The notes under the pieces: model-generated
Told to the model about the DNA's origin: nothing
Databases searched by the model: none
What the model saw: the letters and a program-made list of their open reading frames with translations, nothing else
NCBI GenBank assembly: GCA_964016885.1
Contig: OZ024742.1
Span: forward strand, 115,692,001-115,756,000
Direction: 5' to 3'
From: Eledone cirrhosa
Taxonomy: Eukaryota
Length of the DNA stretch: 64,000 nucleotides
Position numbers and translations under genes: made by a program
In this document: one piece after another, positions 2,911 to 18,279 of the stretch
How positions within the stretch are numbered: the stretch's first letter is position 1
How the letters are laid out: each line of letters starts with the position of its first letter

Positions 2911-2940
2911 TTATTATTATTATCATTATTATTATTATTA
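2911..2940. repeat. (TTA)n microsatellite, left edge of the retrotransposon stack
   Basis: Direct reading. Confidence 0.95.
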
Positions 2941-5900
2941 CAGTTGCATTTATCTTGCTTTATGTTCATACGAGTTATCACCAAGTCACAACAAGTGACC
3001 TCAAGAGACAACAAGGTCCGCCATGTTCAAGAAAGAACATACATACTCACACATGCATCTTTAGTGTTTAGACTTGTGATGTACTTATATTGACAGAATC
3101 TTCCTTAGTATATGGGCAGTTACCATTAGTACTATCTTTTGTATTTTTCCTATACGCGGGTTTCCTGGGATTTGCGATAAGTAATCATTAGACCCCTTAG
3201 GTATCATTCCCAGAGCGCCTACAACCACTGGTATTGCTTTAGTTCTCAATTTCCACATTTTTCCAATTTCTATCTCCAGGTCCTTATACTTGCTCAATTT
3301 TTCAAATGTTTTTATAGATACATTCTGTCTATTGGAACAGACATATCAATTAGCAGGCATACCCTCTTTTTAAAGTCCTTCAATATTATATCAGGTCTAT
3401 TTGCATCTATTTTTCGGTCTGTTTGGATGCTAAAGTTCCACAAGATTGAGATGTGATCTTTTTCAAGTATGGGAGGTGGTTGATGCTCCCAGCAATTCTT
3501 TTGATGGGGCAGGTCAAAATGCTTACACATTATCCAATGTATGTATTGTGCAGCTCTGTCATGCCTGTTTAGGTATTCGGTTGGAGCTATAGGACTGCAC
3601 ATTGAAATTATATGGTCAATGGTCTCTGGTTGTTTTTTGCATACACGGCATAATGGGCTGCACCCATTTTTTATTATGTTGGCTTGGTAATTTTTTGTTG
3701 GCAGACACTGATCTTATGCGGATATAATCAGTCCTTCAGTCTCCGATTTCAGTCCAGAGGATGCCAACCACTGATGGGTTAAAGTTTTGTCAACATCAGG
3801 ATTGTTAGCTCGCTCTGGGTATTTTCCATACAGAGGCTTTTCTTGCCATTTCTTAGCCAGTTTCTGTAGCAGTTCTTTCTTTGCAGTTACTTTTACCTGT
3901 TTTGCTTTTTCTGTGTTTTCCATTTCAGCAGTAAATGGGACTTCTGAAATTTGTAGTCCATTACTGTATCTTTGTGCATCTTTTGTAATGGAATATGATC
4001 TTTTCGTGCTTTCGTGTTTCAAAACTGGTTTGATCATCCAATCATGTGATTCCCTTAGATATGTGGATAATCCAATTGTTGCAGTTTTCAACGCAATGTC
4101 TAACTGGATTAACCCACGTCCTCCTTCTTTCCTAGGAAGATATATTCTATCTATGTCTGCCTTAGGGTGATGCATTCTGTACATGGTTAAGAATTTTCGG
4201 ATTTTTGTATCGAGCCTACGGATCTCTGTGCTTGACCAGTTGATGACATTGTAACTGTAGGTTACTACTGGTATGGCAAGCGTGTTTATGGCATCGATCC
4301 TATTCCTTGCATTCAATTCCGTTCTTAAGATTGCTCTGACTCTGCGGTAACATTCCTTCCTTATCCTTTCCCTCATTGTCGAGTGCTTGATTCCGTCTCC
4401 TTCACAAACACCTAGATATTTGTAAGTTTGTTCTTGATCAAGCTCTCTTATCACGTTCCCCCGATCAAGATTAATGTCTGAACTCTTCAGCAACTTTCCT
4501 CTGGTGAACGTTGCTTTGGCGCATTTATCCAGTCCAAACACCATTTTAATGTCATCACTGAACTGCTTCACAGTGGATAATAGCCCTTGCAATTGTTCAT
4601 CATTTTTTGCAAATAGTTTCAGGTCATCCATGTAGAACAGGTGATTAATGGTTTTGTCATAGACTCTATATCCATGTTTTGTTTCATTGAGCATTTTACT
4701 TAATGGTATAAGTGCGATGCAGAATAAAAGTGGTGATAAAGAGTCACCCGGAAAAATTCCACAATTAATGTTAACTTCTCCAGCTTCCAGTGATTTTGTT
4801 TCCCTATTCAAAAGGAGTGTCGTTCTCCATGTCCTCATACTGAATGACAAAAACCTCCTGATAACGGGGGATATTTTGAAAATCTCTAAACATATTTCAA
4901 TCCAACTGTGTGGCAAACTATCAAATGCTTTTTTATAATCTATCCAAGCAATCGATAGATTTTTGTGTCTATTATGACAATCTTCCAGTATCATTTTGTT
5001 AACCAGAAGCTGATCCTTACAGCCATACGAGCCTCGTTTACACCCTTTCTGCTCAATGGGAAATAGGTCATTTGTTATCAGGTGGTCATATGTGTATTCA
5101 GTTAGGACTGATGTTCAAATTTTATACATTGTGGTCAAGCAGGTTATCGGTCTGTAATTTTTGGGATTGTTTGTCTCATCATTCTTCGGTAGCAGGAATG
5201 TAATGCCGTTAACTAGCCATGATGGTATCTTTTCTGGCTCCTTAACTATTTCATTGTAAAATTGGGCTAACAGCTCATGAGACTCTGTGAAGGCATTTAT
5301 CCAAAAGTTTTGTATTTTGTCTTTTCCTGGGGATTTCCATTTGCTGGTTTTTCTTAGAGCCAAGCGCAGCTGTTCAACTGTTATATTTTCCCATGTTTGT
5401 TCTTCAAGGTGAGCTGTTTCTTTCATTTGTCTGTCTATCCATGGGGCATGTATGTTATGAACTTTTTCTTCGGCCCAGATCTTTTCCCAGAATTCTTGCA
5501 CTTCCTCCTTGGGTGGTATTGATTTAGCAGTTATTGTTGACTTACCAATTTTTCTGTAGAAGTTTCTTTGGTTGTTTTTGAGCATATTATTGTCCTTATA
5601 GAATCTAGAGCGTTTTTCAAAGCGCCTTATACGAGCAGCTTTGGCCGACACTTTTTGCTTGATTGTTTCTATCAGCATGTCTATGTCACATGTTGATCTT
5701 ATACTGTACTTTTTTTTCAATTTTCTAAGTTTAGTTTGTTTAACATGTTCACCTACTTTATAGTTTGTTAAAATTTCTATGTCAGATCGGAGAAGGTTTA
5801 TTTGGCGATTGATGTTATCTTGCCAAGTAGATTTCTTGTGGGAATTCCTTTGTTTTTTCATCTTCACTCCACATAAGTGAGTGGTGACTTTAGCCGATGC

Positions 5901-6347
5901 ATAATAGAGATGATTTAAGTCAGTAATGTTTAGTTTGTTTGTGATGATAATGTTTATGAGAATTATGTTAGTCTTGTGTATTATCTTTTGGTTCTGTTTG
6001 GAGTTCTGGATCTTAGGGAGGGTGTCTCGTTCCCCCATGTCAGATTCTTTCATTTTCATCCATTCGATCATAATTTCATCCTTCAAGTTGGCAAGTTCAT
6101 TCTCATTCATTTCTTTATCATTTACGATCTCATTATTTTCATTTGGAGTTTCATCCTGAGCATGCACTCCCTCCACTTTTTCGCTCCTTTCTTTAATTTG
6201 TTCTGTTGCCAGTGATTCCGCCCCAACCCTGGGATACGAAGTGTTACAGATTACCACGTTTTCACTGACACATGCTTCATTTTCCCTTCGCTGACTTTGT
6301 GCTACTAGCTTGATCTGATCAATTTCTATATCAGTTAGTAACTTTTT
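2941..6347 (-). mobile_element. R4/Dong-type RLE non-LTR retrotransposon, family A copy 1, 5'-truncated
   Basis: The 3' UTR abuts (TAA)n in element sense. ORF pieces 5115-6257, 3714-4994, 3312-3602 and 3085-3297 give RT motifs (KSPGKD, NYRPITCL, WIDYKKAFDS, GDSLSPLLF, LFYMDDLKLF), then CCHC/RHD and PD-(D/E)xK (RPDIIL...LIDMSVP...EKLSKY). Confidence 0.93.
3085..6347 (-). pseudogene. Disrupted RT-RLE polyprotein of family A copy 1
   Basis: Stops at 5115 and 3714, and a frameshift near 3325 relative to the intact C-terminus at 7237-7920. Confidence 0.88.
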
Positions 6348-7030
6348 CTACCGAGGAGCTTTGCCAGTTCGGGATAAACTCTACAGGCATGGAGGTGCCG
6401 TCAGCCGGGCATGTCCGAGATGCGCGCAGGGCGACGAAACCGTCCTGCACGCACTCGTCCAGTGTCCGAAAATTGCTGACTTGTGGGTTTATGTCGAACA
6501 CCTGCTGTGGCGTTTAGGACGGATCCGGCTATCATCTGAGTCCATCTGTCTGGTGGCCATGGCGAAAGAGATAGTATGGTGGACACGTTTGAAAGGGCTG
6601 AAGACGAGCACTTACCTCTTCGGTGATGCTCTGATTGACTTTTTCAAATTTCATTTGAAAAGGAAAATTAGAGTAGAGAGGGAAGTGCTCTCTTCCCAGC
6701 ATTTTGTTGAAAGTGAGAGAAGCGAGAATGGCCCGAGTGAATGGGCCTACTCTGAGTATATATCTGTAAATTAAAGGTGGAAAACTGGGAGAGGGCACTT
6801 GCCTTGGTGGTCAGGGTCATTGTGGCTTTTTACTGGACTTTCTCCACAAATGTCCCTCCGAAGTCTCCCCCCTATTGGGGAATTTTTCATTGTCATTTTC
6901 ATTGTTATTTTTGTTACATCCTCTGTTTTTGTTTTTTACACGCAGAAATGCCCATTTGTACCGTCCTGCATTGTCCTGCACTGTCCTTAATGTCTAATTT
7001 ACGTAAACCCTTGTGGTTAATAAAGAAATC
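6348..7030 (+). mobile_element. 3' fragment of the Tx1-like element (C-terminal zinc finger and 3' UTR)
   Basis: Near-copy of 13088-13822 (ctaccgaggagctttgccagttcgg...aataaagaaatc). CPRC...ETVLHALVQC motif. In-frame 54-bp deletion at an ATC microhomology. Ends at (ATT)n. Confidence 0.93.
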
Positions 7031-16927: not shown

Positions 16928-16986
16928 TTATTATTATTATTATTATTATTATTATTATTATTATTATTATTATTATTATTACTATT

Positions 16987-18166
16987 GTTGTTATTCCTTG
17001 AATCTCAGTCATTGATGTTGGTTAACTGGAAAGTCCGTTGGATTGAATATCAAGCGACTACCTGCAGCCTCAGATATTCAGGACGTATCGGAGGGTTCTT
17101 GCTGTTCCAAGCAAGCATGCCTTTTGAAGCGTTCCAAAAAGCGTGAAGGGGCCGATTTTCTTTAACCATCCCTGGAAACTTTTGGAGATAGTCCCCAGTG
17201 CGCCTATGACAATCGGGATCACTTTGACTTCATGGCAGTTCCAGATCCTTTTCACCTCCCACTTTAGGTCCTGGTATCGGTTAATTTTCTCCCTCTCCTT
17301 CTCTTGCACTCTCGTGTCGAACGGGCAGGCCACATCCACAATCAGACACGATCTTTTTTCTTTGTCCACAACCACCAGGTCAGGTCTATTGTGTTCCAGT
17401 TTTTTGTCCGTCTATATCCTAAAATCCCACAGCACCTTCACCTGATTGTTCTCCATCACCGCCTCTGGCCTATGCTCATACCATTTCTCAGAATGTGGTA
17501 AATTGTTTACTTTGCACAGGTGACAGTGGATCACCCTGCCCATCACATCGTGTCTCCAGCCCTTATAGTGGGTCTGGGCTAGGTGTTTACACTCGGACAC
17601 AATGTGAGCCACAGTCTCCTCTCTCTCTCCACAGATCCTGCACAGTGGGCTAGCCTCCTCCTTGTAGATATGGTGCTTCAACCACTTCGTTTTGAGGGCC
17701 TGCTCCTGCGCAGCCATTAGCATTCCTTCTGTAGCCTGTTTGAGGTCTCCTCTTCTCAACCAGTTCCATGTCTGTGGATCTCTAAATTCAGTTTTCTCAA
17801 AGAAGGTACTATGAAGGGATTTTCCCTTAAGGCTGCTCTTCCTCATTGATGTTATTTCCTCCTTGGACATCCCCTGGCCTACTGTCCCCTCCTTCAGTAC
17901 AGTTCTGAGCATTGGCTCCTTACTATAGGTCACGTATTTGTATAGGTTGTTTTTCTCCATCTGAACACAGTCCTCTATGCTGATAAGACCTCTTCCACCC
18001 TCAGATCTCCTTAGGTAGAGTCTATCGACATCACTCCTCTTGTGGAACATGTTGTAGATAGTCAATAGCTTCCTAGTCTTCCTATCCATTTCTTTTTGTT
18101 CAGCAACATTCCATCTCAGAATTCCCGCACTGTACCTAATAATAGACACAGCTCGGGAATTTACTG
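16987..18166 (-). mobile_element. R4/Dong family B copy, 5'-truncated (~1.18 kb), one nonsense change
   Basis: Very close copy of 14213-15389. CAG>TAG at 17412 splits ORFs 17412-18149 and 17070-17375. Confidence 0.93.
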
Positions 18167-18279
18167 TTATTATTATTATTATTATTATTATTATTATTAT
18201 TATTATTATTATTATTATTATTATTATTATTATTATTATTATTATTATTATTATTATTATTATTATTATTATTATTATT
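18167..18279. repeat. Long perfect (TTA)n, right edge of the stack
   Basis: Direct reading. Confidence 0.97.

What the first reader, a model, noticed from the sequence alone, without database searches (positions are those of the whole stretch)
2911..18279. One (TTA)n locus colonised by three retrotransposon families with strict, opposite strand polarity
Seen: eight insertions (A, Tx1, A, Tx1, B, B-stub, B, B) are packed over 15.4 kb. All but one junction is a TTA tract, with no unique DNA between them. All six RLE-type (R4/Dong) copies lie on the minus strand, facing (TAA)n in their own sense. Both APE-type (Tx1-like) copies lie on the plus strand, facing (TTA)n. Known: Dong elements target TAA repeats, and the Tx1 clade includes microsatellite-specific families (Kibi, Koshi) on other repeats. 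Inference: two unrelated endonuclease types have converged on the same microsatellite but nick opposite strands, and each insertion leaves target on both sides, making a self-renewing landing pad.
Basis: partly seen in the sequence, partly recalled or inferred. Interest (0 to 1): 0.75.

Follow-up and report, generated by a model that had tools for sequence, protein, structure and literature searches.

The report
Opposite-facing retrotransposons stacked on TTA repeats
Two unrelated kinds of jumping gene sit end to end here, joined by short TTA repeats and facing opposite ways, a pattern that recurs across this genome, likely because each kind cuts a different strand of the same repeat and leaves extra repeat behind for the next arrival.

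Summary
Eight copies fill 2941-18166 with only TTA tracts between them, apart from one flush A|T joint at 6346|6347. A ninth, full-length B copy lies just upstream (2910 to about -2508). A and B are Dong/R4-like (RT plus restriction-like endonuclease); T is Tx1-like (APE plus RT). The polarity is genome-wide: of 516 element ends scored outside the window, 457 face the family's own tract strand, 4 the opposite strand, 5 both, 50 none. In 60 random 10-kb regions these families cover 8% (bootstrap 3-14%), mostly as arrays. T makes 17-19-bp target duplications that start at ATT, and B carries an inherited TAA-like tail, so insertions add repeat. Opposite-strand nicking is inferred, not shown. Dong on TAA, microsatellite-specific Tx1, and opposite orientation on one repeat (TRAS/SART) are each published. 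An (ATT)n-specific Tx1 lineage sharing Dong's target was not found in the papers searched; Repbase could not be checked. No read spanned the one junction tested. The scan noted the same thing on two other pieces of this genome, so this locus is one example of a common structure. New variant of a known kind; interest 0.5.

The parts
1..2910 (-). 5' UTR 2910-~1040 with internal ~440-bp repeats; ORF starts near 1040 and is broken; runs upstream of the window to about -2508
   Evidence: (5' region and ORF start co-occur at many loci)
2911..2940 (.). (TTA)n tract between B 5' end and A 3' end
2941..6346 (-). Family A copy (RT, CCHC, PD-(D/E)xK), 5'-truncated; 2 stops, 1 frameshift; 98.8% to nearest fetched copy
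6347..7030 (+). Tx1-like T copy, 3' 0.7 kb only, with an internal deletion; joined flush head-to-head to A; 91% to nearest fetched copy
7031..7095 (.). (TTA)21 tract, tail-to-tail T/A
7096..7987 (-). Family A copy, 5'-truncated, holds CCHC and RLE; 99.2% to nearest fetched copy
7988..8037 (.). (TTA)n tract, head-to-head A/T
8038..13822 (+). Full-length Tx1-like T: ORF1 ~8248-9975 (broken); ORF2 ~10140-13565 (APE, RT, zf-RVT; frameshifts and stops); AATAAA just before the 3' end; ~95% to nearest fetched copy
13823..13847 (.). (TTA)n tract, tail-to-tail T/B
13848..14110 (-). Family B 3' fragment (older subfamily) with a small internal deletion
14111..14143 (.). (TTA)n tract with variant units from the B' tail
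14144..14194 (-). B' 3' stub, 51-57 bp
14195..14216 (.). (TTA)n tract
14217..16927 (-). B' copy, 5'-truncated, open frame 16926-14296 (RT, CCHC, RLE); 99.5% to nearest fetched copy
16928..16991 (.). (TTA)18 tract plus B' variant tail
16992..18166 (-). B' copy, 5'-truncated, one stop; 99.0% to nearest fetched copy
18167..18278 (.). (TTA)37 tract, right end of the array

Best explanation
This is a stack of nine retrotransposon copies of two unrelated clades, joined by TTA repeats with Dong/R4-like copies facing one way and Tx1-like copies the other, likely built over time by target-primed reverse transcription into the same microsatellite. SHOWN: A and B have (TAA)n on both sides in their own sense, T has (ATT)n; T-type 5' ends sit in one phase (ATT then G); T duplicates 17-19 bp of target starting at ATT; B subfamilies carry inherited TAA-like tails; copies differ in age; arrays are more clustered than equal use of all tracts predicts. 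INFERRED: the RLE of A/B makes its first nick on the (TTA)n strand, probably positioned by the N-terminal Myb-like domain. The APE of T nicks the (AAT)n strand between T and A, with a second, less specific cut about 18 bp away. Each T insertion into pure repeat thus adds about six units and turns one target into two. Long tracts beside elements become the preferred targets, so arrays feed themselves. A SINE with a T-like 3' end likely seeds new short tracts.
For: Polarity: 457 of 516 ends concordant, 4 opposite, 5 both, 50 no tract; random regions 29 of 35 concordant, 0 opposite. Neighbour orientation 323 consistent vs 2 not, shared junctions counted from both sides. 5'-truncated copies also abut tracts (RLE 107 of 136, APE 18 of 32), so the upstream tract is target, not part of the element. 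Two further Tx1-like families: 20 of 20 and 20 of 20 5' ends follow ATT in exact phase, query loci included. TSDs: 3 of 33 both-ended APE copies show an informative direct repeat, two unambiguous at 17 and 18-19 bp; shuffled pairs mean 0.55, max 3. Young tandem T2-T2 spacers are 5, 6, 6, 6, 8, 8, 11 units. Clustering: 20 empty, 7 one-sided, 10 two-sided tracts vs 15/17/5 under the best equal-targeting model; simulated P at most 5e-5. Element-side tracts median 33 bp vs 13.5 bp for empty ones (hand count rows). Ages: 91-95% (T) to 99% (A, B') identity to nearest fetched copy. Domains: B best matches R2 proteins by sequence and fold; T best matches L1 ORF2 including the endonuclease.
Against: No cleavage assay: strand of nicking rests on the standard TPRT model. 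No RLE target duplication stood above chance (6 of 101 vs shuffled mean 5.35). 14 of 32 truncated APE 5' ends and 25 of 136 truncated RLE 5' ends have no tract, as at 6346|6347, so deletion also shapes arrays. The TSD count is small and equals the shuffle maximum. Clustering could reflect survival in gene-poor DNA. No listed contig or read bridged the 6346|6347 joint. The SINE-like element mostly sits at short ATT motifs (tails 0-6 units in 26 copies), so if T mobilises it, the APE needs little repeat.
Confidence: 0.78

Rival explanations
1. Polarity is set by the RNA, not the enzyme. Both enzymes nick this AT-rich repeat on either strand, and only the strand that pairs with the transcript's own repeat tail primes reverse transcription.
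For: T ends in AATAAA about 5 nt before its tract, so its RNA plausibly ends in AUU repeats (sequence). B and B' copies carry subfamily-specific variant TAA-like tails, so tail sequence is templated by the RNA. The SINE-like element with a T-like end keeps T polarity at short motifs.
Against: A fixed ATT|G phase at 40 of 40 T2/T3 5' ends and 17-19-bp duplications point to ordered cuts. Published work attributes target choice mainly to the endonuclease (PMC4494074, passage). The two mechanisms can act together.
Confidence: 0.14
2. No real targeting: tracts are just 3' tails, and arrays form by passive accumulation, deletion or unequal crossing-over in gene-poor DNA.
For: Some young T2 tandem copies are identical over 3.2 kb (L322 vs L323), as tandem duplication would give. 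Tract-less head-to-head joints exist.
Against: Tracts lie at 5' ends too: 57 of 57 full-length APE and 45 of 47 full-length RLE ends. Copies in the window are of different families, ages and truncation points.
Confidence: 0.05
3. The array is an assembly artefact that joined repeat copies through their microsatellite ends.
For: No independent read or contig bridged the one junction tested.
Against: No two copies in the window are identical beyond the 51-57-bp stub (A pair 97.5%, B' pair 98.2%). Orientation rules hold at hundreds of ends, including random regions. Target duplications with unique sequence survive. Misjoins would not respect clade-specific polarity.
Confidence: 0.03

Closest known systems
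Dong (R4 clade; Bombyx Dong, DongAg, DongBg, Darwinula Dong1/2)
   Same: Single ORF with RT, CCHC and restriction-like endonuclease; N-terminal Myb/SANT-like fold; (TAA)n target, reported for most insects, molluscs and cnidarians (PMC7998251, passages); TAA upstream in the element's sense (PMC3774820, passages).
   Different: Two families 39% identical in protein share a ~460-bp 5' UTR at 86%. No HDV-like ribozyme was detected, unlike Bombyx Dong (inconclusive). They form long mixed arrays with an APE clade.
Microsatellite-specific Tx1-clade families (Kibi on (TC)n, Koshi on (TTC)n, crocodilian families on (TTCC)n/(TTTC)n)
   Same: Two ORFs, APE-RT ORF2, fixed insertion into a simple repeat (PMC4494074, passages); 10-20-bp duplications typical of APE LINEs (PMC6895275, passages).
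   Different: Target is (ATT)n, not a pyrimidine-rich repeat; host is an invertebrate (nearest named homologue from Argonauta hians, 70%); target shared with an RLE clade. Relation to Kibi/Koshi not testable.
TRAS and SART of Bombyx telomeres
   Same: Two families insert into one tandem repeat in opposite orientations and build arrays (PMC10088271, passages).
   Different: Both are R1-clade, one endonuclease type, on telomeric repeats at chromosome ends. Here APE and RLE types share an interstitial microsatellite at many thousands of sites.
R1 and R2 in 28S rDNA (recalled, not looked up)
   Same: An APE and an RLE element converge on one repeated target.
   Different: Distinct sites in a gene, same orientation, and the target is not renewed by insertion.

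Membership tests
Dong / R4 clade (families A, B) | Single ORF with RT, CCHC knuckle and C-terminal PD-(D/E)xK endonuclease | tested here: met
   1141-aa intact B ORFs; best PDB matches are R2 proteins, with the C-terminal endonuclease motif aligned; Foldseek top 7 are R2. A shows the same motifs by eye, 39% identical to B.
Dong / R4 clade (families A, B) | N-terminal Myb/SANT-like domain without zinc fingers (PMC7998251) | tested here: inconclusive
   B residues 50-131 fold confidently (pLDDT 90). VIA top rows include Zeste Z 6.1, TRF1 Z 5.9 and 5.6 (rmsd 2.0 over 52), LUX, ARR1, GT-1, RAD, TRF2, but none reaches Z 8. Foldseek, Pfam and PDB sequence searches gave nothing significant. A not folded.
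Dong / R4 clade (families A, B) | (TAA)n target on both sides in the element's sense | tested here: met
   3' ends 154 of 162; full 5' ends 45 of 47; truncated 5' ends 107 of 136.
Dong / R4 clade (families A, B) | HDV-like ribozyme at the 5' end (shown for Bombyx Dong, PMC3774820) | tested here: inconclusive
   No Rfam match in 1-18500; a crude descriptor found none in the first 260 nt. Neither test is sensitive.
Dong / R4 clade (families A, B) | RT phylogeny grouping with named Dong/R4 elements | not testable with these tools
   None of the 120 listed homologues carried a Dong or R4 name.
Tx1 clade (families T, T2, T3) | ORF1 with CCHC knuckle (feature recalled) and ORF2 with APE, RT and C-terminal zinc motif, L1-group | tested here: met
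   Pfam Exo_endo_phos, RVT_1, zf-RVT; best PDB match L1 ORF2, E 4e-44; CX2CX4HX4C in intact ORF1s; the one listed homologue with a family name is 'Transposon TX1 149 kDa protein', 34%.
Tx1 clade (families T, T2, T3) | Target preference (over 20% of flanks of one type, criterion in PMC4494074) | tested here: met
   57 of 57 full 5' ends and 76 of 82 3' ends at (ATT)n.
Kibi / Koshi | (TC)n or (TTC)n target | tested here: not met
   Target is (ATT)n; one T2 3' end of 82 runs into (TTC)n (L264).
Kibi / Koshi | RT phylogeny with Kibi/Koshi | not testable with these tools
   No named reference sequences available.
TRAS/SART system | Two families in opposite orientation on one tandem repeat | tested here: met
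TRAS/SART system | Telomeric repeat target at chromosome ends, both partners R1-clade APE | tested here: not met
   Window lies 115.7 Mb into a 378.9-Mb contig; one partner is RLE type.

The most novel reading that the evidence does not exclude
An undescribed (ATT)n-specific Tx1 lineage, still active (40 of 40 listed T2 5' ends identical, intact 1150-aa ORF2), and Dong-like elements have split one microsatellite by strand. This self-amplifying niche makes up roughly 8% of a 3-Gb octopod-like genome, and its unrelated members share a promoter-like motif 26-41 nt from their 5' ends.
Probability: 0.45. Interest if true: 0.7.

Novelty: new variant of a known kind. Interest (0 to 1): 0.5.

Why it matters
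Recent octopus repeat annotation lists Dong-R4 and L1-Tx1 among the recently active LINEs and reports TE hotspots without a cause (PMC13282606, results and methods read). A shared, self-renewing target offers a cause and predicts where new insertions land. It also gives a clean natural pair for asking whether endonuclease or RNA tail sets insertion strand: two unrelated enzymes, one three-base repeat, opposite outcomes. Young intact copies of both types exist for such assays. The window's own array is one ordinary example of this structure.

Tried and rejected
1. That 1290-2910 was a Tx1-like 5' end facing TAA, which would break polarity: rejected, it is the 5' UTR of B. 2. That the 5' ATT tract is part of T: rejected, truncated copies abut tracts and two TSDs run into unique DNA. 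3. RLE target duplications: none above shuffled pairs. 4. Split-host search for pre-insertion sites gave no clean RLE case. 5. Rfam on 1-18500 and on the SINE-like element: only sub-threshold matches. 6. Read support: 4 runs laid on 6000-6900 showed very high summed depth for both families but no listed piece across 6346|6347; the run search used only 6150-6550. 7. One search undercounted through a short de-duplication key and a SINE-like stretch in the A reference; superseded. 8. Literature: searches found no report of an ATT/TTA-specific Tx1 or of Tx1 and Dong sharing a target. Kojima and Fujiwara 2004, the original Dong paper, the supplements and Fig. 3 labels of PMC4494074 and Repbase were not seen and may list such a family. 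9.
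Full report
Observation. Every junction is a (TTA)n tract except 6346|6347, where 5'-truncated A and 5'-truncated T meet with no gap. The rest of the window has only two tracts of four or more units. The array extends upstream. Window 2910-1290 matches the 5' region of B at many loci, so a full-length B runs from 2910 to about -2508. Then come a tract, a ~190-bp SINE-like element, a Penelope-like stretch, and a T fragment on the minus strand that faces TAA tracts, so polarity holds where the tract strand flips.

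Identity of the families. The window lies in a 3.0-Gb genome; the nearest named T homologue is from Argonauta hians at 70%, so an octopod host is inferred. Intact B copies elsewhere encode 1141 aa. Their best PDB matches are R2 proteins by sequence, with the C-terminal PD-(D/E)xK motif aligned, and by fold. The N-terminal domain folds well and its nearest folds include many Myb/SANT domains, but at Z 6.2 or less; sequence searches and Foldseek were blank. A is 39% identical to B in protein, yet the two share ~460 bp of 5' UTR at 86%. T has APE, RT and zf-RVT and best matches L1 ORF2. Two more Tx1-like families turned up: T2 (73% in ORF2) and T3 (T-like ORF2 behind a different 5' end and ORF1).

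Genome-wide polarity. I took the top 30 loci of six end-anchored searches (chosen by similarity, not by flank), 40 longer regions, 30 kb upstream and 60 random 10-kb regions from eight large contigs. The six window loci, copies under 80% identity and 26 3'-truncated boundaries were left out. Of 516 remaining ends, 457 face the family's own tract strand, 4 the opposite, 5 both and 50 none. By class: RLE 3' 154 of 162, full 5' 45 of 47, truncated 5' 107 of 136 at TAA; APE 3' 76 of 82, full 5' 57 of 57, truncated 5' 18 of 32 at ATT. In the random regions alone, 29 of 35 are concordant, none opposite, 6 without tract. T2 and T3 5' ends follow ATT in exact phase in 20 of 20 loci each, query loci included. 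Neighbours across a tract obey the rule in 323 of 325 end-level cases.

Scale and clustering. These families cover 48.5 of 600 random kb, 8.1% (bootstrap 3-14%), in 10 of 60 regions. Of 37 tracts with four or more units, 20 are empty, 7 have an element on one side and 10 on both. A model in which every tract is an equal target expects 15, 17 and 5; simulated P was at most 5e-5. Numbers are small and the SINE was not counted. Element-side tracts are longer (median 33 vs 13.5 bp, hand count).

Renewal of the target. Three of 33 both-ended APE copies show an informative direct repeat: 17 bp (L027), 18-19 bp (L008) and one of open length (L121). Each starts at the first ATT after the element. Shuffled pairs gave a mean of 0.55 and a maximum of 3, but the first two hold 4-6 non-repeat letters. 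Young tandem T2 copies are spaced by 5-11 units, three of seven by exactly 6. In pure repeat an 18-bp duplication adds six units. For RLE copies no duplication rose above chance (6 of 101 vs 5.35), but B and B' carry subfamily-specific variant TAA-like tails, so they add repeat-like sequence too. The SINE-like element ends like T and T2, gave 85 hits in the random regions, and often shows duplications starting at ATT-like motifs (read by eye). It is likely a T passenger that seeds short tracts; one such tail is the left end of this array.

Age. Identity to the nearest fetched copy is 91% and 95% for the two T copies, 96% for upstream B, and about 99% for A and B'. This depends on what was fetched, but it points to layered growth. 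T2 is very young: 40 of 40 listed 5' ends are identical over 235 bp.

Mechanism. Under standard TPRT the strand complementary to the element's 3' flank is nicked first. That gives the (TTA)n strand for A/B and the (AAT)n strand for T. This step is inference. The main rival is that the RNA's own repeat tail selects the strand; the data do not exclude it. Passive accumulation and assembly error are unlikely for the reasons listed, though no read bridged the junction tested.

Comparison with what is known. Dong on (TAA)n, including in molluscs: PMC7998251 and PMC3812793 (passages). Dong ribozyme: PMC3774820 (passages). Tx1 families on (TC)n, (TTC)n, (TTCC)n: PMC4494074 (passages; supplements not seen). 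TRAS/SART in opposite orientation on telomeric repeat: PMC10088271 (passages). Duplication lengths: PMC6895275 (passages). Target-specific groups: PMC4640811 (passages). Dong-R4 and L1-Tx1 abundant or active in octopus: PMC8967140 (passages) and PMC13282606 (parts 1-2 of 3), with no mention of targets in what I read. PMC3747384 (passages) added nothing. Eight searches found no ATT-specific Tx1 and no Tx1/Dong shared target; Repbase and Kojima and Fujiwara 2004 were not seen. Two earlier unchecked notes of this scan describe the same pattern on other pieces of this genome; I had reached the reading before seeing them.

Verdict. Real, well supported, genome-wide. Every ingredient has a precedent; the combination of an APE and an RLE clade on opposite strands of one interstitial microsatellite, at about 8% of the genome, appears unreported. 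New variant of a known kind, interest 0.5.

Noticed in passing
5' ends of A, B, T, T2, T3 (window 2910 minus; 8038 plus; L186:4088; L189:2486): All five families carry a GCTC(C/T)(C)G(C/T)(A/G)A motif 26-43 nt from the 5' end: A 7 of 8, B 30 of 35, T 28 of 32, T3 7 of 8, T2 1 of 1; background 13 in 1.2 Mb. In four families it overlaps a splice-donor-like GTRAG. The pattern was defined after seeing the data. Possibly a shared internal promoter element.
   Followed up: partly
L185:6346-5890 (minus) vs window 2910-2450 (minus): A and B share ~460 bp of 5' UTR at 86% while their proteins are 39% identical, suggesting a 5' module swap; T3 likewise has a different 5' end and ORF1 on a T-like ORF2.
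   Followed up: partly
L304-L323; G000:C4:311.42-311.44 Mb: T2 is very young, with an intact 1150-aa ORF2 (L189) and tandem runs of 2-4 full-length copies about 5.8 kb apart; two neighbours are identical over 3235 bp. Could be serial insertion, duplication or assembly.
   Followed up: partly
L121:7296-7484 (window -2704 to -2517); window 21450-21617, 24073-24232: Abundant ~190-bp SINE-like element whose 3' end resembles T and T2; forms its own ATT-linked tandems; no Rfam match.
   Followed up: partly
window -5256 to -2705 (L121): Penelope-like stretch with 123-bp inverted ends, each abutting a TTA-phase tract; it marks the switch of tract strand. The same ~110-bp repeat flanks the whole structure in inverted orientation at -6532 and 18278.
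   Followed up: no
window 1290-2500: B 5' UTR holds imperfect ~440-bp direct repeats whose number varies among copies.
   Followed up: no
L134, L148, L216, L269: Several B/A junction tracts grade from (TAA)n into (GAA)n, matching the GAAGAAGA start of the 5' end; may reflect slippage at the 5' junction.
   Followed up: no
window 53808-57632 (minus): Old, diverged Tx1-like remnants (32-53% to T2 ORF2) with degenerate TAA-rich tracts nearby at 52269-52345 and 59372.
   Followed up: no
window 30594-32542 (+); window -14087 to -10260: Penelope-like RT remnants in the window, and an inverted pair of 663-aa Penelope-like ORFs upstream.
   Followed up: no
L188, L198, L078, window 6346|6347: Recurring tract-less joints between 5'-truncated elements, consistent with deletion at the 5' junction or afterwards.
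   Followed up: partly
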